Source: a virus
DNA: 64,000 nt
Direction: 5' to 3' (one strand)
IMG/VR virus record: IMGVR_UViG_3300028133_000003
Span: 4,219-68,218 of that record
Shown here: in pieces, positions 4,279 to 63,966 of the stretch
How positions within the stretch are numbered: the stretch's first letter is position 1
Layout: every line of letters begins with the position of its first letter
Program-made: the position numbers and the translations under genes
Notes under the pieces: generated by a model
Databases searched by the model: none
What the model saw: the letters and a program-made list of their open reading frames with translations, nothing else
Told to the model about the DNA's origin: nothing

Positions 4279-5781
4279 TTAGTATCTAACATTTTGTACC
4301 TCGAATGGAAATTTTTCTTCTTTATAAATTTTCCTTCTTTCCATACCATGCCTGTAAATATAATTTACCCAATCATGATCATCTACTTTATATCTAAAAT
4401 CATCAATAAAATCATATATCTTTACAACATCTTTGGCTTCATGTTTTCTTAGACCTCTACCAATTGATTGTCTAATAATTACTTCAGACTTAAATGATTC
4501 AGTAAAAAATATGTTATGTATATTTTTAATAGATATACCAGTTGAAAAAGTACCGTATGATGCTACAATAATAACATCATCATTCTTTTCCATTCTCTTT
4601 TTAAACTCCTCTCTAAAATCAGACTTAACAGAGCCATCTACATAATAAACCTTTTTGTCTGTTATTGTTCTAAGTTTTTTGTAGATCTTTTCACCGTATG
4701 CAATTTTATGAAATAATATTAAAGAATTAGATTTTGATTTTTTAATTACTTGACAAATAAAATCTAGTCTCTTTTCACTTTCATTAATAAAGTTCTGTTC
4801 TAAACTAAATAGCTTTTGTCTATCATACGGGTTTTTAGATAATGATGAGAATGCTTCTTTTTGTGCATCGGTTGCATATTCCATGTGGATCTGTAATACT
4901 TTACATTTTGCAATATGGCCTTCTTCTTGTAAATGAGCAGCCTTTACTTGTGTTACTAATGGGCCCATTGCCGACATTAAACTAAGTCTATTTACAGTCC
5001 CTCGTTTAGGAATAGTTCCACTTAAACCAAATCTATAATCACAGTGCCAGCATTTATCCATTATCTTCTGAATTGAATTTGCTTTTGCTTTATGAGTTTC
5101 ATCAACAAAGACTGCGTCAAATTGACTAAAATATTCTTCATCCTTTTTAGTTAAAGATTGATAAGTACCTATAACTATGTTAGAACTCTTTCGTAATTTT
5201 ACACCTGCATAAATCTGTTGAATCTTAATAGGTACTCTTCCTTTATTGTATTCTTCAAAATCTCCGCTTGCTTGAACTACTAAACTTACATTAGGTACAA
5301 TCATTAGGATTTTCTTTTTACCTAATTGCTCCATCATATAAGCAACCACCATAAAAGAAATTAAAGTTTTACCTGCAGACGTTGCTAATTCAGCCAAACA
5401 CCTTCTGTATTTTAAAATTTTGATTGCAGCATCAATCTGATAGTCTCTAGGTTTAATTTCAGAGTTGGCAAAAAATTCATCTGCCCATGTCTTAAAAGTT
5501 TCCTCATCTATTGAGGTATCAAAAATATCAGTAATTCCGTTTAGTGTAAATTGATAATCATACTCTTTGCATATATCAATCACTTCTTTCCATAAACCTG
5601 CTGGAATTTTATTTCTTTTAATAAATGAAATGTTACCATCCCATACCTTCTTCTTTACCAAAGGATGGAATCTCCACCCTTCTATTTTCTTAGTAAGGCT
5701 AGATTTTAATTGTTCATATTCCAATTCGGTACATGAATCAATTACTAAAAACTTTTTATTTTCTGAGAGAGATAGCTCCAT
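4279..5781 (-). CDS. uvsW: UvsW-like SF2 DNA helicase
   Basis: PRDYQ (Q motif), LATSAGKT (Walker A), DETH, GLSGT, STGISIKNIHNI, QSIGRGLR. Adjacent to UvsY, as in T4. Confidence 0.93.
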   Translation of the reverse strand: MELSLSENKKFLVIDSCTELEYEQLKSSLTKKIEGWRFHPLVKKKVWDGNISFIKRNKIPAGLWKEVIDICKEYDYQFTLNGITDIFDTSIDEETFKTWADEFFANSEIKPRDYQIDAAIKILKYRRCLAELATSAGKTLISFMVVAYMMEQLGKKKILMIVPNVSLVVQASGDFEEYNKGRVPIKIQQIYAGVKLRKSSNIVIGTYQSLTKKDEEYFSQFDAVFVDETHKAKANSIQKIMDKCWHCDYRFGLSGTIPKRGTVNRLSLMSAMGPLVTQVKAAHLQEEGHIAKCKVLQIHMEYATDAQKEAFSSLSKNPYDRQKLFSLEQNFINESEKRLDFICQVIKKSKSNSLILFHKIAYGEKIYKKLRTITDKKVYYVDGSVKSDFREEFKKRMEKNDDVIIVASYGTFSTGISIKNIHNIFFTESFKSEVIIRQSIGRGLRKHEAKDVVKIYDFIDDFRYKVDDHDWVNYIYRHGMERRKIYKEEKFPFEVQNVRY

Positions 5782-6230: not shown

Positions 6231-6445
6231 TAAAATATTCCTTTATCGTTATTAATCTTTTTGTAACTTTTTACTTTTGGTTGAAATTTCTTTTTAGGTT
6301 GAGGTAACGAAAAGTTACTTTTTACACTATCAGTTTCAATCTTTTTAAACTTAGTAAATAATTTAAGCTTTTTCTTAGACGTTTCTAAGTCATTATAAAA
6401 ATCCTCGAACTGTTCAGCCACGAATTCATTATATTTTTTTATCAT
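6230..6445 (-). CDS. Small basic hypothetical protein with capsid-targeting-like N-terminus
   Basis: MIKKYNEFVAE, close to the T4 CTS MKTYQEFIAE. Confidence 0.55.
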   Translation of the reverse strand: MIKKYNEFVAEQFEDFYNDLETSKKKLKLFTKFKKIETDSVKSNFSLPQPKKKFQPKVKSYKKINNDKGIF

Positions 6446-7515
6446 AAGAAAATTAAATCTAAATGATTGTTTGTAAAATATTTATCCAACTCATTTAAAC
6501 AGCCAGTTCTATTTTTAAATTCATATTTAACTAGATCGTTTAAATCTTTTACCTTTTTCTTAGGTATACTAAAATCCTTTAAATATTTATCCCACATGAA
6601 AACCGTTTGCCCTTTCTTTAGCTTTTGGATCATTTTAGCTTTACCTTCATAATCATTATCAAACATATATCGCGCAGTTGGTATTTCATCAAAATCTAAT
6701 ATTTGTTTTTTAACACCGGTTAATCCTAATGTATTTGACATAAAGAAAGAATCTATAGGACCTTCAAATATTGTAAATGTTCTACCTAAATCAACGGTTA
6801 AGATACCGAATATCATTGAAATTTTATTTAAAGAATCAAGTTCATCTTCAGATACTTTTAGCGGTTTCTTTAACCTATCATATATTCTTTCTATATTCCA
6901 TGTTTTGTATTTAGGACCACCTGTATTTTCTAAAGCTCTAACCTGAAACCCTATTATCTTACCTTTCTTATTTAGATTAAAAACATATAATTCTTTTCTT
7001 CTTGGATCATAACCGAATTTTTCTGTTTTATGATGGAGCAACCTACTCTTAAGATATGGGTATGCTCTGTATGTTAAAGAGTTAATAGGATATACATTAA
7101 ACCCTAACGCAATTTCATCAAATGATAATGCTAATTTATTTGCAGTTTCAAATAAATGAAATTCTAAAGTTTCACCTAAAGAAAAGTTTTTTCGATTTTC
7201 TTTAATAAAATTAATTACATCTATACGGTCTTCGCCTTCGAAGTTTACATTATGATCTTTTAGAAATACATCTAAACTCTCATGAGCCGAACAATTGTAA
7301 CAGTGGAATTGTAAATTTTTCCAATAAAGATTACCTCTTTTCTTTCTTACTGAATCTGTTGAATCACCGCAATAAGGGCATGCAAAATTTAGCCTTTCCT
7401 TACTTTCTAGCATCCTCCTTTTTTCTGGGTGAGAATGATTAAGGTGAAGAACTCGGACCACCTTATCGATGATCCGAGCTTTCATTTCAGAAGATATTAA
7501 TACTTCTGTTCCCAT
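6442..7515 (-). CDS. gp61: T4 gp61-like DNA primase
   Basis: NFACPYCGDS...FHCYNC zinc ribbon; FEGPIDS and FDND TOPRIM motifs; KDLND. Confidence 0.9.
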   Translation of the reverse strand: MGTEVLISSEMKARIIDKVVRVLHLNHSHPEKRRMLESKERLNFACPYCGDSTDSVRKKRGNLYWKNLQFHCYNCSAHESLDVFLKDHNVNFEGEDRIDVINFIKENRKNFSLGETLEFHLFETANKLALSFDEIALGFNVYPINSLTYRAYPYLKSRLLHHKTEKFGYDPRRKELYVFNLNKKGKIIGFQVRALENTGGPKYKTWNIERIYDRLKKPLKVSEDELDSLNKISMIFGILTVDLGRTFTIFEGPIDSFFMSNTLGLTGVKKQILDFDEIPTARYMFDNDYEGKAKMIQKLKKGQTVFMWDKYLKDFSIPKKKVKDLNDLVKYEFKNRTGCLNELDKYFTNNHLDLIFL

Positions 7516-25248: not shown

Positions 25249-27378
25249 TTATTTAATCACGTCATACACAAAATCTAAAATACCTTCTTGTGTACATATA
25301 AATTCTATAATCGGTTTTTCTGAAATATCAGCATTAGTTATTACTCCCATTGATTGACCAAATAAACCATTATTTAATCTACCTGGTGCATCGGTCCATA
25401 CCCTAATATTTCTTGAACCTATATTCAGATTATTATTAAAGGTTAGTCTTAGTGTTTGTCCAGTTTTCCATTGTATAGTAGTATCATCTATATAAATATT
25501 TAAATCTCCACCTGCTTCATTGACAGTATCTAATCTTAACATGTTTGTGTAAGTTTGTAATTCTGTAAATACTTGAGGTACTGCCTGGTTTAAATTTAAT
25601 GGGTTAGTAGAATTAATTACAACCTCACTACTATTAAAAGGTATCATAAAATTATATTCCTGTGTAGCTAATGACACAGTAATAACATTAGGTACATTAG
25701 TATCTACTGTAATTCCAGTACCTTGTCTAACTACATCAGTATTATATTGTAAGGTAACAGGTACGTTCCCGTTTGCTAAACCTTGTATTTCATCTGAGTT
25801 TTTAGCAATTAGATCTAATAAAACTGTATCATTTGCAAAAGCTAAATTTGCATTATCTAATTGATCCTGTACACTTGTGATCTGAGCTTGTAATGAAGTT
25901 ACATCAGCTACATTAGTAATTTGGTTTTCTAAGTTTTGGACCTTTTGGTCTAAGCTAGAAATTTCTAATTGTTGTGTTTGGAATATTTTAGCTGATTCCT
26001 GTAGCTGTGCAGTCGCTTCACTGAAGAGCTGCATTGAAAATGTATTATAGTCATTAACGATTGTGTCGATGCCGGCCGTTCCTGGTGAAGCATCAAATCG
26101 TAAATTAATTTTAAATCCATAACTGTTTCCATTTTGCCCTGTGACTTTATTAGGTTTATATTTAGGGTATCTTTGAATGTAACCACCGTCTGTTGTTGGA
26201 GTAATATTATCTACTAATAATATTCCATAAAGGTTTGTTACAGTATTAGAGGTATTGCTTGTATCAACTAAATCATAATAAACTAATACTGCATTAAATT
26301 CAAATGTACTTGCCAAATCAGTTCCATTAAACTGAGGGATTGTAGATATAGTAGGATCTGTTATAATCTGTTCATAATCATTAGCATTAAAATCAACCGA
26401 AATACCATCCAACTGCGATCTAACATAAGCAGAGCCAGTAAAACCAGCAGGACTTCCATAATCAGCAGGATATTTTCTAATGTTTATACTTTCTGGGTTA
26501 GTAAATGTATTAGGTTCAGTAAAATAAGAATCTGTTGTAGTAGGAGGCGTTGGCTCATTCATCCAATTCGCATTAGGATCAGTATACCCTGCAGGCCCTG
26601 CACCTTGTAAAACCTGATCATAATCATAAAATGCCTTAAAGTCTAAACCTTGTGGGTGAACCGTTGATGCGTTTCTTCCGAGTATAAATTCAGAGTTAGG
26701 CCCGGTGCCTTGTATCTTTAAGCTTGGCTGATAATTATTATCTGAAATAGCATCAAACAAAATAGTTGGAGTACCACCTACTTCAGTTGGTACATTAATA
26801 TAAAGTTCTGTATATGCTTCACCTGCTTTATCTACATTATTTACAATATCAATATCGCCTACATATTTTACAACTCTGTTATATTGTTGTGTTGCTGTAT
26901 TAATAGAATCTTCTTCAACGAATAGTGGCTTAGCTACACCTGGATTTTTTTCTAATGCAGTTGCTTCACGAAACCTCATTGCACCAGTCTCTTTCATCCA
27001 TTTAAAAAATACTCTTTCTGCAACTGACCTTTGTATTGTGTTATCATAAGAGGCATCACTAATAATCATCTCCTCTATATTCAGCGCGTAATTCTGAAGA
27101 CTTTCGGTAAAGTTAACATTAGGATCTCCTTTTAAACCTCCACTGGCAATCATACCATCAATAGTATCAAATTGCATATAATTAGGTTCAGTGAGTGTAC
27201 CTGTAGTATTAGGATCTAATTTATCAAAGTCTGGTATATTTAAAAGCACAAACTTAGAAAAGACCAACTTAAGCTCATCATTGTTAAGGGTCTTTGATAG
27301 ATCTCTCGCAGAGGAAGAGAAGGTATAAAATGTACCTCCATCCGCTTGCGGTGTTTTAATTAAAGGCGTAGTTGCCAT
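25249..27378 (-). CDS. Putative virion structural protein, 709 aa
   Basis: Long ORF with a central coiled coil; structural context. Confidence 0.5.
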   Translation of the reverse strand: MATTPLIKTPQADGGTFYTFSSSARDLSKTLNNDELKLVFSKFVLLNIPDFDKLDPNTTGTLTEPNYMQFDTIDGMIASGGLKGDPNVNFTESLQNYALNIEEMIISDASYDNTIQRSVAERVFFKWMKETGAMRFREATALEKNPGVAKPLFVEEDSINTATQQYNRVVKYVGDIDIVNNVDKAGEAYTELYINVPTEVGGTPTILFDAISDNNYQPSLKIQGTGPNSEFILGRNASTVHPQGLDFKAFYDYDQVLQGAGPAGYTDPNANWMNEPTPPTTTDSYFTEPNTFTNPESINIRKYPADYGSPAGFTGSAYVRSQLDGISVDFNANDYEQIITDPTISTIPQFNGTDLASTFEFNAVLVYYDLVDTSNTSNTVTNLYGILLVDNITPTTDGGYIQRYPKYKPNKVTGQNGNSYGFKINLRFDASPGTAGIDTIVNDYNTFSMQLFSEATAQLQESAKIFQTQQLEISSLDQKVQNLENQITNVADVTSLQAQITSVQDQLDNANLAFANDTVLLDLIAKNSDEIQGLANGNVPVTLQYNTDVVRQGTGITVDTNVPNVITVSLATQEYNFMIPFNSSEVVINSTNPLNLNQAVPQVFTELQTYTNMLRLDTVNEAGGDLNIYIDDTTIQWKTGQTLRLTFNNNLNIGSRNIRVWTDAPGRLNNGLFGQSMGVITNADISEKPIIEFICTQEGILDFVYDVIK

Positions 27379-37680: not shown

Positions 37681-38595
37681 TCAGTCAGTTGTATTCTTAG
37701 CACTTAGTGCTGGTGCGGTAACTTTATTAGGCGGACTAGTAGGAGCACCTAAATTACCAATATGATAATGTGAATCAAATATTCCTGCAAAAGTATCTCC
37801 CTTTATAACGGCCTCGGCTGCTGCCTCACCTAATTTAATTCTTGGGGAGTTAATATGTGTTTCACCTGTTGCAGTTACCACTGCGTTAACACAATTAATA
37901 AGAGTATCTGTTGTAGCATTAATTACGGTATCAGCTCCACTATTAATTGTAAACTGAGCAGAATGAGTAAAGGTTATATTTCCATCATTAAGCATTACCA
38001 TAGAATCTCCATTAGCATTAATTATATGAACCGAGTTATCAGGTTTTACGTTAATTGTAGTTGGTCCTTCTGTAGTGGTATAATCCATCATCAGACCTTT
38101 TTCTTCTGTAAAGAAAACTTTAATATGCTCACCTTCTCTTTCGTTAGTAACCGCAGGATCTCCAGATTGTAAATCACCAGTTAGACCAAATGCCGTATCA
38201 TATATTAGTACATGTGAATTAGGGTAAGCGGCCTCTACCTCTGCCTTAGTCTCATCAGAAGGGTATAGTGACTCATGATATACTGGAGCATAATAATTAC
38301 CGTTATCAAAACTTACTCTTAATACAGTGCCTATTTTAGGGAATGAGAATGTTCCACTTCCTGTGTTACTTCCACCGGACGAAGCCACTGATGGTCTTGC
38401 CCAAGGTAATGATTCAGTTGGCATAATGTAAGCACTTGCCGGATCTTCAGGATCTGTTCTTTGATCCATCTTACCAAAGACCCTAACTTTACACCGTCCT
38501 TCAAAAATATCATCTGCATTATCTTCAACGATACCTATCCATTGCGTACCTTGTAAGTTATCATCCTTTAAATCTTTTGTTGTTAATTTTCCCAT
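37681..38595 (-). CDS. Baseplate central spike (gp5/VgrG-like OB fold plus beta-helix)
   Basis: WIGIVEDN.D...GRCKVRVFG, LPWARP, PKIGTVLRVSFDNGN, C-terminal FDSHYH. Confidence 0.85.
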   Translation of the reverse strand: MGKLTTKDLKDDNLQGTQWIGIVEDNADDIFEGRCKVRVFGKMDQRTDPEDPASAYIMPTESLPWARPSVASSGGSNTGSGTFSFPKIGTVLRVSFDNGNYYAPVYHESLYPSDETKAEVEAAYPNSHVLIYDTAFGLTGDLQSGDPAVTNEREGEHIKVFFTEEKGLMMDYTTTEGPTTINVKPDNSVHIINANGDSMVMLNDGNITFTHSAQFTINSGADTVINATTDTLINCVNAVVTATGETHINSPRIKLGEAAAEAVIKGDTFAGIFDSHYHIGNLGAPTSPPNKVTAPALSAKNTTD

Positions 38596-38600
38596 TATTA

Positions 38601-40007
38601 TTATTGATCAAAAATGTTAGTACTTGTGAATCCTCCACCTGGGCCTGATGGCCCACTACCAAATATATTTTCTGCACCGCTTAAGTCATCTCCGCTAGCA
38701 GAAGGTATCTGGCCAGAGAAAATGTTATCATCTATCGATTGATTTATACCTTGGGCAGCTTGCCCAGTTAATGCTTGTATAGCCGCACCGTTTAAAGATT
38801 GAATTAAAGATTGTGGATTGCTAATTGCACCAATCAATTGATTTCTTAAACCAAATACATTTCCAAATGCTAAGCCTTGTGTAAATGCATTAATTCTACT
38901 CTGGGCAAAATTAGTAGCTCCTTTTATAAGATTATCCTTAAGGCCAGTTAACTTACCTTCTATCTGATCCATTATTTGGTCTTTATCCCAAACCTTATTC
39001 TGTAAATTAAGTTTACCATTAATACCACTCGGTTGTAATCTACCCGTGTCTTTTAATGTAGAGTCATATCCTGCAAACTGAGACTCCATCTCTATTGCCC
39101 CATATCCCCATTTCATAGATGATATTGCAAATTCAGTACCACCTCCACTAACATTTGTTACCGATTTAAACACTTCACTGGACGCAGTAGGATCAAACGT
39201 ACAATCACTGAATCTAAAAGTTAATCTAGAAGTATTATTATTTACAAATTTTGTTAAATCATTTTCTGGTGAATTAGCATTCCCTGCAGTTGCAGCCTTT
39301 CTTACACTATGAAATTTTCTAATTTCTAATACATCAATATCAACATTAAAAAATCTCAAATTAGACGGTAAAATATTTCTTCTGTATTTTACATCGTAAC
39401 AGGCCATTTTATATAAGTTAAATAATGCAGTCATTTTTAAATCTATAGCTTCTAATAAACCTATAACAATACCTTCACCTTCAGCTGAGCCTGCAAAAGG
39501 ATCTGTCATATCCATTGTTTTATTATATGCCTCAATCAAGCCTTCAATTGTCTGAAAGTAATAAGGCCTTTCACGCTGAACTTGTAAAATCCCTTGGCAA
39601 AACGCTCTTAAGTAATTAGCTCGCGTAACTTCACCTATCGTTTCTAAATAACCAACTGCAGTTTCACCAGCAGGATGAGAGCTCACGCTATTAGATAGCT
39701 CAGTTTGATCTTCCGCGTTATTACCAGGTGATGGTGCTATAGCACCACCAGTATCGCCAACGGTAGCTCCATTAAATAGTGGGCTCATTATATCAAATCT
39801 AATATTAAATCCTAAATAAGTAGGGTCATCTAATGTAGTAACACCATTACTTCCACCGGATGAATTAGTAGAAGGTGTAACAAATGTTTTTGCAAAATCA
39901 TATGCAGTCGGAAACTGTCCTGTTAAATTACCTAACTTATCTGCACTCAAATAATTAAGAGGTGTACCTGCTGGATCAAGAGGATTATATAATTCAATTT
40001 TAGGCAT
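38601..40007 (-). CDS. Putative tail-tube initiator/baseplate protein (gp48/gp54-like)
   Basis: Position between hub and spike; GAATAAATA box at 40021..40029. The family call is tentative. Confidence 0.4.
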   Translation of the reverse strand: MPKIELYNPLDPAGTPLNYLSADKLGNLTGQFPTAYDFAKTFVTPSTNSSGGSNGVTTLDDPTYLGFNIRFDIMSPLFNGATVGDTGGAIAPSPGNNAEDQTELSNSVSSHPAGETAVGYLETIGEVTRANYLRAFCQGILQVQRERPYYFQTIEGLIEAYNKTMDMTDPFAGSAEGEGIVIGLLEAIDLKMTALFNLYKMACYDVKYRRNILPSNLRFFNVDIDVLEIRKFHSVRKAATAGNANSPENDLTKFVNNNTSRLTFRFSDCTFDPTASSEVFKSVTNVSGGGTEFAISSMKWGYGAIEMESQFAGYDSTLKDTGRLQPSGINGKLNLQNKVWDKDQIMDQIEGKLTGLKDNLIKGATNFAQSRINAFTQGLAFGNVFGLRNQLIGAISNPQSLIQSLNGAAIQALTGQAAQGINQSIDDNIFSGQIPSASGDDLSGAENIFGSGPSGPGGGFTSTNIFDQ

Positions 40008-51284: not shown

Positions 51285-52607
51285 TTAACAATTTCTCCCA
51301 TTCTCATATATATGTTTTACTACCGGAAACCTTAATGAATATCCACCGTTTTGATTTTGGCTTTCTTCAAAATATTGAACAGTTACAGTTTTACCGATTA
51401 GTTCATTATGATTGTTGAGGTAGTGTTCTCTTTGTTCTTTAGAAAATCCAGATCCTACACTTACACGGTTACCTTTATGTTCAATAATAATATTACTTAA
51501 ACCTTCCTTTTCAACTTGTTTTCCATTTTCTGTCCATCGCATTGTACCGTTCATACATTCTAGGATTGTATATTCAGCATCATGGAATTTTTTAACCTTT
51601 AGAAGATTATGGCTTCTTTTACCTTCATAGCCGATATTCTTTCTAACCATGATTCCTTCAAATCCAGCATCTTCGGCTTCTTTTGCCATCTCAGTAAATT
51701 GTTCCTCTGTGGTTAGTTGATCCTGTGGTAAGAATTCTAACATAGAAGAGTTAATTCCTTCTGGTAAAATATCATAACCATTCTTAAGTCTTTCAGTAAG
51801 CGGTGTAGTTCCAGTCTTATTATCAAATTCATCTAAAGTTAAATAATCAAATACAAAGAATTTAGGATTTTCAATTTGATGGTCCTTCTTTCTGATTTGT
51901 TTCATAATTCCTTGGAAGTCTTCATTACCATCTTTATCTACCATACAGATTTCTCCATCTAAAATAAAGTCTCCACCTATTTTAGAAATTTCATTTTCTA
52001 AATTACCTAAGGTTGTAAATTCTTTACCGTTCCTTGAAAAGAATGTTACAGTATTCATTTCTTTTCTACAGATACATCTTACACCATCCAATTTTCTGGA
52101 TCCGTACCATTCTCCACTTTGAAAATCCACTCTCTTAGGATTATATGCATTTGCTAAAGCGACCTTAAAGGTTGGAATTAAATCTGGGTGGATTGCCTTA
52201 TTAATAGAAGTAGTACCACATCCCATATTAAGGTCTCGGTTTAGCATATAGTAAATAATATCTTCCCATTGCTTATTCTCTAGGACGAATCTATTTACAT
52301 TTGCAATTGCCGTATGACCGGTACATACCCTATTTCTTAAATCATCCAATAAGGTAAAGATACTACCGTATGTATTTGGGTGACCTAGTAAATCTGAATT
52401 CTTTTTGCAATTCCTAGGAGTTACATTATATTTGAAATAAGGATTGTAAGTATAGAAGAAAACTTTCTGTAAGAATTCTCTATCAGAATTTTCAACAGAG
52501 TTATCAGCATACTTTTTAAGAGTTGCAATTTTATGATTCCCTGATGAGGAAGAGCGCATTTCATCCAAGAAGGATTGTAGATAAGTAAGGTTTGTGTATT
52601 CAGTCAT
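51285..52607 (-). CDS. lig: ATP-dependent DNA ligase
   Basis: SRKLDGVRC, FSRNGK, LDGEI, FVFD, EGIMVR, LLKVKK, VGSGFS, SLRFP. Confidence 0.93.
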   Translation of the reverse strand: MTEYTNLTYLQSFLDEMRSSSSGNHKIATLKKYADNSVENSDREFLQKVFFYTYNPYFKYNVTPRNCKKNSDLLGHPNTYGSIFTLLDDLRNRVCTGHTAIANVNRFVLENKQWEDIIYYMLNRDLNMGCGTTSINKAIHPDLIPTFKVALANAYNPKRVDFQSGEWYGSRKLDGVRCICRKEMNTVTFFSRNGKEFTTLGNLENEISKIGGDFILDGEICMVDKDGNEDFQGIMKQIRKKDHQIENPKFFVFDYLTLDEFDNKTGTTPLTERLKNGYDILPEGINSSMLEFLPQDQLTTEEQFTEMAKEAEDAGFEGIMVRKNIGYEGKRSHNLLKVKKFHDAEYTILECMNGTMRWTENGKQVEKEGLSNIIIEHKGNRVSVGSGFSKEQREHYLNNHNELIGKTVTVQYFEESQNQNGGYSLRFPVVKHIYENGRNC

Positions 52608-58416: not shown

Positions 58417-58431
58417 GCCTTATATATTTTG

Positions 58432-58504
58432 TTGTGCCGCAGGGGATCGAACCCCGACTCTTCGGTACCAAAAACCGACGTGTTGCCAATTACACCACAG
58501 CACA
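58432..58504 (-). tRNA. tRNA-Gln(UUG)
   Basis: Acceptor TGTGCTG/CGGCACA, anticodon stem TCGGT/ACCGA with loop TTTTGGT, T-loop TTCGATC. CCA not encoded. Confidence 0.92.
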
Positions 58505-61573: not shown

Positions 61574-61592
61574 ATCTTTATTTTTATAAGGG

Positions 61593-61666
61593 TGAACCAG
61601 ACAGGATTCGAACCTGTGACCGTCTGCTTAGAAGGCAGATGCTCTATCCAACTGAGCTACTGGTTC
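61593..61666 (-). tRNA. tRNA-Arg(UCU)
   Basis: GAACCAG/CTGGTTC acceptor, GCTC/GAGC D-stem, TCTGC-CTTCTAA-GCAGA anticodon arm, ACAGG-TTCGAAT-CCTGT T-arm. Confidence 0.95.
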
Positions 61667-62257: not shown

Positions 62258-62278
62258 TTTTGTTTATTTAAAGATTAG

Positions 62279-62364
62279 TACCGCTGGGCGGATTCGAACC
62301 GCCACGAACATTACTGTTCAAAGGATTTTAAGTCCTTCGTGTCTACCAGTTTCACCACAGCGGC
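62279..62364 (-). tRNA. tRNA-Leu(UAA)
   Basis: GCCGCTG/CAGCGGT acceptor, AAGGA-CTTAAAA-TCCTT anticodon arm, long variable arm, GGCGG-TTCGAAT-CCGCC T-arm. Confidence 0.95.
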
Positions 62365-62672: not shown

Positions 62673-62855
62673 TTATTCATCATCATCATACATACCCCAA
62701 ATAAACATAACCAAAAAGAAAGGCCATATAAAAAACCACAATAACCGCTCAGAGTTTTTAGGAGGTTCCATATCTAATCTATCAAAGAGTATATCAAAAC
62801 ATAACCCACACACTACACCTATTCCAATATAAATAAGTAGCCAATTAGTTAGCAT
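62673..62855 (-). CDS. Small membrane protein
   Basis: 60 aa with two hydrophobic segments and IWP. Confidence 0.6.
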   Translation of the reverse strand: MLTNWLLIYIGIGVVCGLCFDILFDRLDMEPPKNSERLLWFFIWPFFLVMFIWGMYDDDE

Positions 62856-63126
62856 TGATTAATTCTTTAATTTGTTTATCTTCTACCATTCCAATCTTTT
62901 TACCTTTAATCTCCCCATCTTCAAAATAGATAAGAGTAGGAATACTTCTAATACCGTATTCTTTAGCAAGATCTGATTCTTCATCTACATTACAAAAGAT
63001 AACTTCTATATCTGGATTGTCAGTAGCAAATTTCTCTAATTTAGGTTTCATTACTTTACACGGTCCACACCATGATGCCCAAAAGTCTACTAATACTTTA
63101 GGTCCTTTTAAATCTTCTTTTGTCAT
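62845..63126 (-). CDS. trxA: Thioredoxin
   Basis: VLVDFWASWCGPCK, NVDE, GIRSIPTL. Confidence 0.95.
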   Translation of the reverse strand: MTKEDLKGPKVLVDFWASWCGPCKVMKPKLEKFATDNPDIEVIFCNVDEESDLAKEYGIRSIPTLIYFEDGEIKGKKIGMVEDKQIKELINAN

Positions 63127-63889: not shown

Positions 63890-63966
63890 TCGGCCGAGAG
63901 AGACTTGAACTCTCATGTAACCAATTACTCTTTCTACAAGGTATAAGCTTGAGGAGATACCGGCCG
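63890..63966 (-). tRNA. Atypical tRNA-like gene with UAU (Ile) anticodon and rearranged D-arm
   Basis: Acceptor CGGCCGG/TCGGCCG+ACC, T-arm GAGAG-TTCAAGT-CTCTC, CAAG-CTTATAC-CTTG anticodon arm. No D-arm in the normal position. Confidence 0.65.

What the first reader, a model, noticed from the sequence alone, without database searches (positions are those of the whole stretch)
63890..63966. tRNA(UAU)-like RNA with the D-arm apparently moved to the 3' side of the anticodon arm
Seen (minus strand): CGGCCGG-UAUCUCCU-CAAG[CUUAUAC]CUUG-UAGAAAGA-GUAA[UUGG]UUAC-AU-GAGAG[UUCAAGU]CUCUC-UCGGCCG-ACC. The acceptor, T-arm and 7-nt anticodon loop (U33, UAU, A37) are intact. Only 8 nt separate the acceptor from the anticodon stem, and these can extend that stem (UCU/AGA, CU/AG). 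A hairpin with a D-loop-like GG sits where the variable arm would be. Known: bacteria normally read AUA with lysidine-modified tRNA-Ile(CAU), and UAU anticodons are rare. Inference: a topologically rearranged tRNA or tRNA mimic, either a TilS-independent AUA reader for an AT-rich genome or a decoy for anticodon nucleases.
Basis: partly seen in the sequence, partly recalled or inferred. Interest (0 to 1): 0.7.

Follow-up and report, generated by a model that had tools for sequence, protein, structure and literature searches.

The report
Rewired isoleucine transfer RNA in phages
This marine phage carries a gene for an isoleucine transfer RNA whose inner parts are joined in a different order from every textbook tRNA; hundreds of phages carry such isoleucine or arginine versions, and standard gene finders miss them.

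Summary
It is not a decayed tRNA. ARAGORN and Rfam miss almost all of them.

A 3-bp helix, CUC (63956-63954) with GAG (63930-63928), encloses the anticodon arm and is paired in every aligned sequence. A canonical D-loop follows it (U-A14-R15-Y-Y-G18-G19-N20-A21). R15 covaries with the base before the T stem, like the Levitt pair. The simplest reading is a tRNA whose D/anticodon domain is circularly permuted while the L-shaped core is kept.

Only Ile (UAU, GAU, CAU) and Arg (ACG, UCU, CCU, UCG, CCG) anticodons occur. Ile members have A73 and U20; Arg members have A/G/U73, A20 and C35. These match the bacterial identity sets.

The genes sit in phage tRNA arrays and mostly supply an anticodon that the canonical neighbours lack. 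Here UAU fits AUA, which is 41% of Ile codons. Cultured Streptomyces, Rhodococcus, Microbacterium and Bacteroides phages carry members. Charging and expression are not shown.

The parts
63890..63966 (-). Whole non-canonical tRNA-Ile(UAU) gene, positions 1-73 (77 nt). CC follows at 63889-63888, then G, so CCA is not fully encoded.
   Evidence: Sequence read. Covariance model R2 scores it 96.7 bits, E 1e-24. Not called by ARAGORN or Rfam.
63960..63966 (-). Acceptor stem 5' strand, CGGCCGG. It pairs with 63897-63891.
   Evidence: All 7 pairs covary in 146 sequences and 96.1% of cells are paired.
63957..63959 (-). Connector U8-A9-U. The last U lies opposite U at 63927 and is taken as the 22.13 mismatch.
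   Evidence: T8 and A9 are invariant and T10 is >=90% conserved in alignment A1, where the search pattern did not fix them. The canonical numbering is my inference.
63954..63956 (-). 5' strand (CUC) of the 3-bp helix that encloses the anticodon arm. Taken as the equivalent of D-stem positions 23-25.
   Evidence: 100% paired in 80, 146 and 79 sequences. Pair 11:39 is CG120/AU22/UA4 and pair 12:38 is CG76/UA59/AU5/GC5/UG1. It ranks among the top mutual-information pairs and is predicted by RNAalifold.
63952..63953 (-). C-U, taken as position 26 and U27 of a U27.U43 mismatch.
   Evidence: C14 is invariant and T15 is >=90% conserved where unconstrained. Their role is inferred.
63937..63951 (-). 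Anticodon arm: stem CAAG/CUUG (4 Watson-Crick pairs) and loop CUUAUAC. The anticodon UAU lies at 63945-63943.
   Evidence: All 4 stem pairs covary. Loop positions C32, U33, A35, U36 and A37 are invariant in A1, where the pattern left them free.
63931..63936 (-). Linker U-A-GAAA between the anticodon stem and the 3' strand of the enclosing helix.
   Evidence: With this stretch left free in the search, 113 of 114 members have GAAAG and 1 has GGAAG. Its structural role is unknown.
63928..63930 (-). 3' strand (GAG) of the enclosing helix. Taken as the equivalent of D-stem positions 10-12.
   Evidence: Same covariation as for 63954-63956.
63918..63927 (-). Relocated D-loop, U-A-A-U-U-G-G-U-U-A, read as U13 A14 A15 Y16 Y17 G18 G19 U20 U A21.
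   Evidence: UA..GG is kept in all unconstrained sequences. Position 20 is U in Ile members and A in 72 of 73 Arg members that have GG. It is not a hairpin.
63915..63917 (-). Linker C-A-U. The U is taken as Y48 of a Levitt-type pair with A15 (63925).
   Evidence: R15/Y48 covariation: AU51, GC22, GU2, other 3 in 78 sequences that were not selected on these columns; AU118, GC22, GU2, other 4 in A2.
63898..63914 (-). T arm: GAGAG [UUCAAGU] CUCUC.
   Evidence: The stem covaries and 97.5% of cells are paired. The T-loop is U-U-C-R-A-N-Y in nearly all members.
63890..63897 (-). Acceptor stem 3' strand UCGGCCG plus discriminator A73 (63890).
   Evidence: A73 is present in 161 of 161 unique Ile-type members.
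62278..62364 (-). Canonical tRNA-Leu(UAA), same strand. Part of the same loose tRNA cluster.
   Evidence: ARAGORN; Rfam 58.4 bits.
61591..61666 (-). Canonical tRNA-Arg(UCU), same strand.
   Evidence: ARAGORN; Rfam 75.8 bits.
58431..58504 (-). Canonical tRNA-Gln(UUG), same strand.
   Evidence: ARAGORN; Rfam 60.9 bits.

Best explanation
The locus encodes a working tRNA-Ile(UAU) of a previously unrecognised architecture.

Architecture. The acceptor stem, T arm and anticodon loop are standard. The D/anticodon domain is circularly permuted. The chain runs acceptor 5' strand, U8 A9, then the strand that normally forms the 3' half of the D stem (CUC), C26, the anticodon arm, a U-N-GAAA linker, the strand that normally forms the 5' half of the D stem (GAG), a normal D-loop (A14 R15 .. 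G18 G19 U20 .. A21), a C-A-Y48 linker, the T arm and the acceptor 3' strand.

Inferred 3D fold. The 3-bp D-like helix stacks on the anticodon stem. Ten stacked layers result, as in a normal tRNA: 4 pairs, U.U, the C26 layer, 3 pairs and U.U. The relocated D-loop still docks on the T-loop through G18/G19 and pairs R15 with Y48. The molecule should therefore still be L-shaped. The three new chain junctions (9 to 22, 44/45 to 10, 21 to 46-48) join residues that are already neighbours in the canonical tRNA core.

Inferred life cycle. The RNA is transcribed with the neighbouring genes and cut by RNase P and a 3' nuclease. It is completed by the CCA-adding enzyme, because only CC is encoded. Host IleRS charges it through A73, A35, U36, A37 and U20. 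It is then used to read AUA, which this 32%-GC phage uses for 41% of its isoleucines.

Shown: the sequence family, the secondary structure, the 15:48 covariation, the restriction of anticodons to Ile and Arg, the identity-element match, and the location in tRNA arrays.

Inferred: the 3D fold, processing, charging and decoding.
For: (1) Family size. They gave 161 unique Ile-type sequences and 79 unique Arg-type sequences.

(2) Helix 11-13/37-39. It is 100% paired, with compensatory changes, in 80, 146 and 79 sequences. Its two variable columns were Ns in the search patterns. The Arg set shows 13 complementary helix types, and 79 of 80 tail-filtered hits pair 3/3 without any prior filter on this helix.

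(3) Independent structure tests. Mutual information on 150 gapless sequences ranks as its top 17 pairs exactly the acceptor, anticodon-stem and T-stem pairs plus 12:38, 11:39 and 42:52, and nothing else. RNAalifold predicts the same structure.

(4) Tertiary signature. R15:Y48 is AU51, GC22, GU2 and other 3 in 78 sequences not selected on these columns. UA..GG and the T-loop UUCRA are kept.

(5) Anticodons. With the anticodon free, 129 of 129 true pattern-1 hits are NAU: 91 UAU, 34 GAU and 4 CAU. With position 35 set to 'not A', 79 of 79 structured hits are Arg: ACG 51, UCU 17, CCU 6, UCG 4, CCG 1. With A35 and non-U36, a complete scan gave 49 hits of which 0 are structured.

(6) Identity elements. 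Ile members have A73 in 161 of 161 and U20 in >=90%. Arg members have discriminator G44, A28, U8, A20 in 72 of 73 with GG, and C35 in 79 of 79. Table 1 of PMC9976931 (passages seen) lists for bacteria: Ile, A73, U20, A35, U36, A37; Arg, A/G73, U73, A20, C35, U/G36.

(7) Context. 74 of 161 unique Ile-type members have a same-strand canonical tRNA within 20 nt, and 94 within 100 nt.

(8) Complementarity. In the 43 loci with >=10 canonical tRNAs, UAU-member loci have canonical Ile gat in 9, tat in 1 and none in 8. GAU-member loci have tat in 6, gat in 1, both in 1 and none in 14. Two loci (L237, L161) carry both member types and no canonical Ile. For Arg members, the same canonical anticodon is in the locus for 1 of 79, another Arg anticodon for 30, and none for 48.

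(9) This window. AUA is 419 of 1025 Ile codons. The three canonical tRNAs match UUA (62% of Leu), AGA (74% of Arg) and CAA (79% of Gln).
Against: No direct evidence of a mature RNA, of CCA addition or of aminoacylation. Metatranscriptome contigs cover the locus, but they cannot show ends, and DNA carry-over is not excluded.

Some phages are redundant. Streptomyces phage Mildred21 has canonical tRNA-Ile(gat) and tRNA-Ile(tat) as well as a GAU member. L177, L042 and L167 also duplicate an anticodon.

Anticodon choice does not follow locus GC as codon compensation predicts. UAU loci have median GC 0.363 and GAU loci 0.331.

Several E. coli Ile identity elements are not conserved. C4-G69 occurs in 74 of 146, and 12:23 is U-A in only 22 of 146. 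C29-G41 is absent from the window's copy.

The Ile type rarely starts with G1-C72 (13 of 161). It carries a conserved U.U at 27:43 and frequent 6:67 mismatches (27 of 146).

The 3D model and the canonical numbering are inferences. No RNA 3D tool was available.
Confidence: 0.75

Rival explanations
1. A tRNA mimic or decoy that is not used on the ribosome. It would soak up, or be resistant bait for, a host factor that acts on tRNA-Ile or tRNA-Arg, such as an anticodon nuclease, a modification enzyme or a synthetase. Alternatively it would bind a phage protein.
For: The fold is non-canonical. Some phages already have a canonical tRNA with the same anticodon. Mildred21 also encodes a Ro-like protein, an RNA ligase and a polynucleotide kinase, which are hallmarks of tRNA damage and repair conflicts. 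Anticodon type does not track GC.
Against: Two different amino-acid identities each keep their own synthetase determinants: A73/U20 against A/G/U73, A20 and C35. All elements needed for EF-Tu and the ribosome are kept: a 7/5 acceptor/T branch, the T-loop and the elbow GG. Members mostly fill the anticodon that the array lacks. Five different Arg anticodons and three NAU anticodons are hard to explain by one nuclease target.
Confidence: 0.15
2. A tRNA-like processing signal ('punctuation'). RNase P and RNase Z would recognise it to cut polycistronic phage transcripts, and it would have no decoding role.
For: It lies 46 nt upstream of the next ORF. In the relative L020 it begins 9 nt after an ORF's stop codon. 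U at -1 occurs in 92 of 161 members. Only the acceptor/T domain is needed for such cleavage (recalled).
Against: A processing signal needs neither a conserved anticodon loop restricted to Ile and Arg anticodons, nor position-20 identity bases, nor an invariant A73. Many members sit inside dense tRNA arrays, where canonical tRNAs already provide cleavage sites.
Confidence: 0.06
3. A decayed or rearranged tRNA pseudogene with no function.
For: ARAGORN and Rfam do not call it. The single-sequence folding energy is unremarkable.
Against: There are hundreds of homologues in unrelated phages with compensatory changes in every helix and an invariant core.
Confidence: 0.01
4. One reading: no D stem, an anticodon stem extended by UCU/AGA and CU/AG, and a GUAA[UUGG]UUAC hairpin in the variable-arm position acting as a displaced D arm.
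For: These pairs can be drawn on the window's own sequence.
Against: On 80 homologues, pair 39:50 is broken in 13, 41:48 in 38, 12:36 in 35 and 15:32 in 34, with zero compensatory changes. Neither mutual information nor RNAalifold supports any of these pairs.
Confidence: 0.02

Closest known systems
Canonical bacterial and phage elongator tRNA-Ile (Rfam RF00005), for example the ordinary tRNA-Ile(UAU) of Kehishuvirus 'tikkala' at L003:535-609
   Same: 7-bp acceptor stem, 5-bp T stem with a UUCRA T-loop, 7-nt anticodon loop with U33 and A37, A73, the G18G19 motif, R15:Y48 covariation, about 77 nt in length, location in tRNA arrays.
   Different: There is no D hairpin between positions 9 and 26. 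The D-like helix is formed by strands on either side of the anticodon arm, and the D-loop lies 3' of that arm. A nearly invariant GAAA linker is present. RF00005 reaches its gathering score (29 bits) for only 1 of 10 members tested (32.8 bits), against 42-72 bits for canonical neighbours. The window's copy gives no hit.
D-arm-lacking mitochondrial tRNAs (mammalian mt tRNA-Ser(AGY), nematode and mite mt tRNAs; review PMC7609411, passages seen)
   Same: No D hairpin on the 5' side. A short connector joins the acceptor stem to an extended anticodon helix.
   Different: Those RNAs are shortened and have lost the D-loop, and the review describes them as flexible. Loss of the D-loop/T-loop elbow contacts is recalled. 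Here the RNA is full length, and the D-loop, the GG, the T-loop and the 15:48 pair are all retained. These RNAs occur in phages, not organelles.
Circularly permuted tRNA genes of the red alga Cyanidioschyzon merolae (PMC3978253 and PMC3728597, abstracts seen in the listing)
   Same: Permutation of tRNA segments relative to the textbook order.
   Different: In the alga the whole gene is permuted (3' half before 5' half), and RNA processing restores a canonical mature tRNA. Here the 5' and 3' acceptor strands are in the normal order. Only the inner D/anticodon domain is permuted, so the mature RNA must keep the new topology.
allo-tRNAs and (8/4), (9/3) tRNAs of bacteria and phages (PMC5389517, abstract and passages seen)
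   Same: Non-canonical tRNAs found in bacteria and their phages through metagenome mining. UAU is among the predominant anticodons there.
   Different: Those keep the cloverleaf order and change stem lengths (8/4 or 9/3 acceptor/T, long V-arm). Here the acceptor/T branch is 7/5 and the order of elements is changed.
tRNA mimics: the YrlA (Y RNA-like) tRNA-like module, the tmRNA tRNA-like domain, viral tRNA-like structures
   Same: They share an acceptor/T-arm module with tRNA, and some occur in phages.
   Different: No Rfam match for the window's copy. Only a chance-level Plastid-ycf2 hit appears on the opposite strand (22.5 bits against a threshold of 65.7). Unlike those mimics, this RNA has a complete anticodon arm with amino-acid-specific anticodons.

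Membership tests
tRNA (functional class: aminoacylated adaptor) | 7-bp acceptor stem with a single-stranded discriminator and a 3' CCA | tested here: met
   All 7 pairs covary. A73 is present in 161 of 161 and C74 in 158 of 161. CCA is not fully encoded in the window (ACCG), so it would have to be added after transcription.
tRNA (functional class: aminoacylated adaptor) | T arm with a 5-bp stem and a T-Psi-C-R-A loop | tested here: met
   The stem covaries. The loop is UUCRANY in nearly all members.
tRNA (functional class: aminoacylated adaptor) | Anticodon arm with a 7-nt loop, U33 and a purine at 37 | tested here: met
   C32, U33, A35, U36 and A37 are invariant where unconstrained. The stem has 4 covarying Watson-Crick pairs plus a conserved U.U.
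tRNA (functional class: aminoacylated adaptor) | Elbow and core tertiary contacts (G18G19 with the T-loop, R15:Y48, U8:A14) | tested here: inconclusive
   The sequence signatures are present, and 15:48 covaries. The contacts themselves need structure probing or a solved structure.
tRNA (functional class: aminoacylated adaptor) | Aminoacylation and use on the ribosome | not testable with these tools
   Only indirect support: the identity-element match and anticodon complementarity.
Canonical cloverleaf tRNA (Rfam RF00005, ARAGORN model) | D hairpin (stem-loop) located between positions 9 and 26, 5' of the anticodon arm | tested here: not met
   Only 8 nt separate the acceptor stem from the anticodon stem. 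The D-like helix spans the anticodon arm.
Canonical cloverleaf tRNA (Rfam RF00005, ARAGORN model) | Detection above threshold by the family model | tested here: not met
   The window's copy gives no RF00005 hit even at E<=10. 1 of 10 members reaches the gathering score. ARAGORN overlaps 1 of 130 Ile-type members (a spurious Leu call) and 0 of 79 Arg-type members.
D-armless mitochondrial-type tRNA | Loss of the D-loop and of the conserved elbow nucleotides, with a shortened RNA | tested here: not met
   The D-loop with GG and the canonical T-loop are retained, and the length is 77 nt.
Circularly permuted tRNA gene (Cyanidioschyzon type) | The 3' half is encoded upstream of the 5' half, so the acceptor strands are swapped in the gene | tested here: not met
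   The acceptor 5' strand is at the 5' end and the 3' strand plus discriminator is at the 3' end.
allo-tRNA / (8/4) or (9/3) tRNA | 12-bp acceptor branch split 8/4 or 9/3 | tested here: not met
   The split is 7/5 throughout the alignments.
Bacterial tRNA-Ile identity set (PMC9976931 Table 1) | A73; A35, U36, A37; U20 | tested here: met
   A73 in 161 of 161. A35, U36 and A37 are invariant. U20 is >=90% conserved.
Bacterial tRNA-Ile identity set (PMC9976931 Table 1) | C4-G69, U12-A23, C29-G41 | tested here: not met
   4:69 is C-G in 74 of 146. 12:23 is U-A in 22 of 146. 29:41 (columns 17:29) is C-G in 10 of 146. The window's copy has C4-G69 but G12-C23 and A29-U41. The numbering is my mapping.

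The most novel reading that the evidence does not exclude
Phages have evolved and spread a second, topologically distinct solution to the tRNA fold. It is a tRNA with a circularly permuted D/anticodon domain that host IleRS or ArgRS still charges and the ribosome still uses.

In this reading it is retained because the rewired D region makes it invisible to host enzymes that read the canonical D arm, such as tRNA-targeting defence nucleases, or to the phage's own host-tRNA-depleting nucleases. It is restricted to Ile and Arg because these two class Ia synthetases rely on the anticodon, the discriminator and D-loop position 20, not on the D-stem backbone.
Probability: 0.3. Interest if true: 0.95.

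Novelty: new variant of a known kind. Interest (0 to 1): 0.88.

Why it matters
The cloverleaf order of tRNA elements is treated as universal outside animal mitochondria. [quoted passage not shown] A widespread natural tRNA with a different internal wiring would matter in four ways.

(1) It would show that the L-shape can be reached by another chain path.

(2) It would give synthetases, EF-Tu, RNase P, the CCA-adding enzyme and the ribosome a natural test substrate.

(3) It would offer ready-made candidates for orthogonal tRNAs.

(4) It would mean that tRNA counts and codon-compensation analyses of phage genomes systematically miss or misname Ile and Arg tRNAs. In cultured Streptomyces phages the members are unannotated, or labelled 'tRNA-Leu', 'tRNA-Phe(gaa)' or 'tRNA-OTHER', or lie under an ORF annotation.

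Members occur in cultured phages of Streptomyces, Rhodococcus, Microbacterium and Bacteroides, so the claim is directly testable at the bench.

Tried and rejected
Single-sequence folding: z = -1.41, not informative.

Rfam at E<=10: only a chance-level Plastid-ycf2 hit on the opposite strand. That family also hits the antisense of ordinary tRNAs.

blastn with the window's own 79 nt: only 3 true homologues, the rest being T-arm matches to ordinary tRNAs. Pattern scans and a covariance model were needed.

Covariance model R1 was built with a structure string shifted by one column. This was my slip. I discarded it and used R2.

Conserved neighbouring protein: 1443 ORFs within 5 kb of members in 157 loci were clustered by blastp. 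No partner is shared across lineages, and the largest cluster appears to be ORFs lying over tRNA arrays, judging from one example's position.

Anticodon against locus GC: the trend is opposite to the codon-compensation prediction.

Other amino-acid identities: a complete scan for A35/non-U36 anticodons gave 49 hits, none structured. A free-anticodon structural regex over all held loci gave only TAT, GAT and CAT. The patterns fix TAT..CT....CT, T.GAAA and TA, so variants lacking these would be missed.

Expression: the 2.5-kb stretch is held by 20 runs from 20 studies (one may be the source). All are marine or seawater, and 6 are RNA libraries. Contigs of 4 RNA runs cover the locus; one 169-nt contig spans 63821-63989 with no difference. 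Contigs cannot show ends, strand or level, and DNA carry-over is possible, so this is not evidence of a mature RNA.

Earlier findings of this scan: nothing by sequence or by words.

Literature: 8 full-text searches and passages of PMC7609411, PMC5389517 and PMC9976931 gave no description of this architecture.

Cellular origin. The pattern-1 scan of 185,579 species genomes gave 32 loci. 16 are Collinsella chance hits, 4 are other chance hits, and 12 are true members. Model R2 found no member in 150 other genomes of the phylum of G001. The statement is 'not found in those searched', not 'absent'.
Full report
OBSERVATION. It finds nothing at this locus. Rfam agrees at gathering thresholds. At E<=10 on 1 kb it still reports no tRNA hit, only a 22.5-bit Plastid-ycf2 match on the opposite strand. 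Folding the single sequence is unremarkable: z = -1.41, and 19 of 200 shuffles fold as well. The window is the 3' part of a 68,218-base IMG/VR virus record estimated to be 25% complete. The contig ends 34 bases beyond the RNA.

A LARGE FAMILY, NOT A DECAYED COPY. Sensitive blastn found three look-alikes in a 462-kb uncultured phage and two crAss-like phages. All have the same odd layout, and none is called by ARAGORN.

Pattern 1 covers the linker and the GG stretch and leaves two Ns in the helix. In 185,579 species genomes it gave 32 loci. The other 20 are chance hits.

Pattern 2 covers only the 5' half and also hit the limit with 119 stretches. Together these scans gave 161 unique Ile-type sequences.

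A covariance model built on 146 of them (R2) scores the window's copy at 96.7 bits. Ordinary tRNAs score at most 34 bits.

SECONDARY STRUCTURE. Two of the 82 available were dropped: L128, a Collinsella chance hit, and L133, which has a 1-nt gap in the T-loop.

In my model the three bases after U8-A9-U (columns 11-13; CUC here) pair with the three bases after the GAAA linker (columns 37-39; GAG here). All 80 sequences are paired. Pair 11:39 is CG67, AU9, UA4. Pair 12:38 is UA45, CG29, GC4, AU2. Both variable columns were Ns in the search pattern.

Pair 39:50 is broken in 13 sequences, 41:48 in 38, 12:36 in 35 and 15:32 in 34, with no compensatory change.

An unbiased mutual-information scan of 150 gapless sequences returns as its top 17 pairs exactly the acceptor, anticodon-stem and T-stem pairs plus 12:38, 11:39 and 42:52, and nothing else. 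RNAalifold predicts the same structure on 146 sequences, and the pair counts hold there.

TERTIARY SIGNATURE AND THE PERMUTATION READING. Once the GG stretch was left free (pattern 2), it varies as U-A-R-Y-N-G-G-(N1-3)-R-C-A-Y. This is the consensus of a normal D-loop (A14 R15 .. G18 G19 .. A21; textbook knowledge, recalled).

Its third base covaries with the last base before the T stem: A-U 51, G-C 22, G.U 2, other 3 in 78 sequences not selected on these columns. This isolated pair behaves like the Levitt pair R15:Y48.

With the linker left free (pattern 3), 113 of 114 members have GAAAG and one has GGAAG.

Read in canonical numbering (my inference), the chain is 1-7, U8, A9, [22]23-25, C26, 27-43, N44, G45-AAA, 10-12, U13, A14-A21, C-A-Y48, 49-65, 66-72, A73. 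In other words, the D/anticodon domain is circularly permuted.

The stack from the anticodon loop to the top of the D-like helix has ten layers, as in a normal tRNA: 4 pairs, U.U, the C26 layer, 3 pairs and U.U. The three new junctions join residues that are neighbours in the canonical core through the 9-12-23, 10-25-45, 26-44, 8-14-21 and 15-48 contacts (recalled from yeast tRNA-Phe).

A duplication of the 10-48 segment followed by loss of its outer parts would produce exactly this order, including two variable-loop-like linkers. This origin is speculation.

ONLY TWO AMINO-ACID IDENTITIES, EACH WITH ITS OWN DETERMINANTS. Pattern 1 did not constrain the anticodon. Even so, all 129 true hits are NAU: UAU 91, GAU 34, CAU 4. 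The 130th entry is the Collinsella chance hit.

Running R2 on Streptomyces phage Mildred21 revealed two further loci with the same layout but Arg anticodons. One carries UCG and scores 71.3 bits; the record calls it 'tRNA-Phe(gaa)'. The other carries ACG, scores 67.4 bits and is unannotated. A weaker UCU candidate is annotated 'tRNA-OTHER'.

Among 80 unique hits with a good acceptor/T-arm tail, 79 have 3 of 3 helix pairs. All 79 carry Arg anticodons: ACG 51, UCU 17, CCU 6, UCG 4, CCG 1. The one failure, L268, was dropped.

In these 79 sequences all three helix pairs covary, including 13:37 (CG72, GC4, UA2, AU1), and 100% are paired.

A complete scan for A35/non-U36 anticodons (Leu, Val, Phe and others) gave 49 hits, none structured. 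This also calibrates the chance level.

The base after GG (position 20) is A in 72 of 73 Arg members that have GG, and U in >=90% of Ile members. The discriminator is A in 161 of 161 Ile members, and G44, A28, U8 in Arg members. C35 is present in 79 of 79 Arg members although the pattern allowed C, G or T.

These features match the bacterial identity sets in Table 1 of Giege and Eriani 2023 (PMC9976931; passages seen). For Arg the table lists A/G73, U73, A20, C35 and U/G36. For Ile it lists A73, U20, A35, U36 and A37. Other E. coli Ile elements (C4-G69, U12-A23, C29-G41) are not conserved.

CONTEXT. 74 of 161 unique Ile-type members have a same-strand canonical tRNA within 20 nt, and 94 within 100 nt. 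For example, L008 packs the member between tRNA-His and tRNA-Cys with spacers of a few bases.

In the 43 loci with >=10 canonical tRNAs, members mostly supply the Ile anticodon that the canonical genes lack. UAU-member loci have canonical gat in 9, tat in 1 and none in 8. GAU-member loci have tat in 6, gat in 1, both in 1 and none in 14. L237 and L161 carry both member types and no canonical Ile. L130 has 20 canonical tRNAs, none of them Ile.

For Arg members, a canonical Arg tRNA with the same anticodon is in the locus for 1 of 79, one with another Arg anticodon for 30, and none for 48.

In this window AUA is 419 of 1025 Ile codons. The three canonical tRNAs match UUA (62% of Leu), AGA (74% of Arg) and CAA (79% of Gln).

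Results against this reading are as follows. Mildred21 has canonical Ile-gat and Ile-tat as well as a GAU member. Anticodon type does not follow locus GC in the expected direction. No protein gene is consistently adjacent.

DISTRIBUTION. Cultured carriers of the Ile type are 78 Streptomyces phage records, described in genome announcements as cluster BE. Examples are Mildred21, Jay2Jay and EGole. Mildred21 and EGole score 94-97 bits with R2. Further Ile-type carriers are Rhodococcus phage Peregrin (78.6 bits), Kehishuvirus 'tikkala' (host Bacteroides cellulosilyticus), the crAss-like phage cr130_1 and bajarodcaudo virus 1.

The Arg type occurs in Streptomyces phages and in Microbacterium phages such as Zooman and A3Wally.

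R2 found no member in 150 other genomes of the phylum of G001, the Saprospiraceae MAG that holds L130. The family therefore looks phage-borne, but cellular genomes were only sampled.

In the deposited records the members are almost always unannotated. Exceptions are 'tRNA-Leu (UUA)' in EGole, 'tRNA-Phe(gaa)' and 'tRNA-OTHER' in Mildred21, and ORF annotations laid over the Arg type in some phages. RF00005 reaches its threshold for 1 of 10 members tested.

EXPRESSION. The surrounding 2.5 kb is held by 20 marine or seawater runs from 20 studies, one of which may be the source. 6 are RNA libraries. Contigs from four RNA libraries cover the locus, but they cannot show ends, strand or level, and they do not exclude DNA. 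Expression and processing therefore remain unshown.

MECHANISM AND RIVALS. The best-supported reading is a bona fide tRNA-Ile(UAU) with a permuted core that reads AUA for an AT-rich phage (confidence 0.75). The structural part is close to certain. Charging and decoding are inferred from identity elements, anticodon restriction and array context.

A non-decoding mimic or decoy (0.15) is disfavoured by the two identity-specific determinant sets and by the anticodon complementarity, but it is not excluded.

Why phages keep this topology is open. One untested idea is escape from enzymes that read the canonical D arm. Mildred21 also encodes an RNA ligase, a polynucleotide kinase, a Ro-like protein and a CCA-adding enzyme.

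COMPARISON AND NOVELTY. The RNA works like a tRNA but fails the defining cloverleaf feature of a D hairpin 5' of the anticodon arm. It differs from D-armless mitochondrial tRNAs because the D-loop and elbow are kept. It differs from algal permuted tRNA genes because the mature RNA must stay permuted. It differs from allo-tRNAs because the acceptor/T branch is 7/5.

Eight full-text searches and three papers read in part gave no description of it. Supplements and subscription journals were not visible. I rate it a new variant of a known kind, of high interest.

CAVEATS. Columns fixed by a pattern were judged only in sets where they were free. Sequences are related, so cell counts overstate the number of independent events. 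However, the many different pair types (up to 4 per pair, and 13 helix variants) cannot come from a single event. The canonical numbering and the 3D picture are inferences.

Noticed in passing
L260 (Streptomyces phage Mildred21, NC_042008.1): 26380-26456, 37926-37998, 38559-38687: Three features are annotated 'tRNA-OTHER'. The first has a CUUCUAA loop (Arg UCU) and a weak match to the permuted-core model (31.4 bits). It may be a diverged member or yet another odd tRNA.
   Followed up: partly
L260: 20770-22422, 39530-40630, 41173-42078, 36088-36354, 13168-13689: The same phage encodes a Ro-like RNA-binding protein, an RNA ligase, a polynucleotide kinase, a tmRNA and a tRNA nucleotidyltransferase. 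The Ile-type member starts directly downstream of the nucleotidyltransferase gene. This looks like a tRNA repair and quality-control toolkit.
   Followed up: no
L008:1894-1969 and L079:5009-5079: ARAGORN reports 'tRNA-???' genes with a 4-letter (cctt) or 2-letter (ca) anticodon inside phage tRNA arrays. They may be tRNAs with 8-nt or 6-nt anticodon loops.
   Followed up: no
window 62845-63126 (-) and L261:90-356 (Rhodococcus phage Peregrin): A thioredoxin-like ORF with the motif WCGPC lies about 760 nt downstream of the window's member. Peregrin also has an annotated thioredoxin about 1.1 kb upstream of its member. This may be coincidence.
   Followed up: no
L287:839-917 and 1398-1476: Two almost identical Arg(ACG) permuted-core members lie about 560 nt apart in one viral contig, which suggests a recent duplication. 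L079, L134, L161, L237, L269 and L339 also carry two members each.
   Followed up: partly
L079:4089-4167 and 4761-4839; L081, L123, L173, L198: CAU-anticodon members (7 unique). They could be tRNA-Ile2 (a lysidine-type AUA reader) or a Met tRNA. L079 has no canonical tRNA-Met among its 12 tRNAs.
   Followed up: no
L032:392-473: A tRNA-Sec-like hit (RF01852) at 39.2 bits, below the gathering score of 47, in a viral contig next to an Ile-type member.
   Followed up: no
many loci: The Rfam family Plastid-ycf2 (RF04354) gives sub-threshold hits on the antisense strand of ordinary tRNAs. The model appears to contain the reverse complement of a plastid tRNA gene, so such hits are artefacts.
   Followed up: partly
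window 4279-5781, 6442-7515, 51285-52607 (all -): PHROG matches to DNA helicase, DNA primase and ATP-dependent DNA ligase. 5 of the 10 long ORFs tested match no PHROG family. GC is about 32% throughout. This is a poorly characterised large marine phage.
   Followed up: partly
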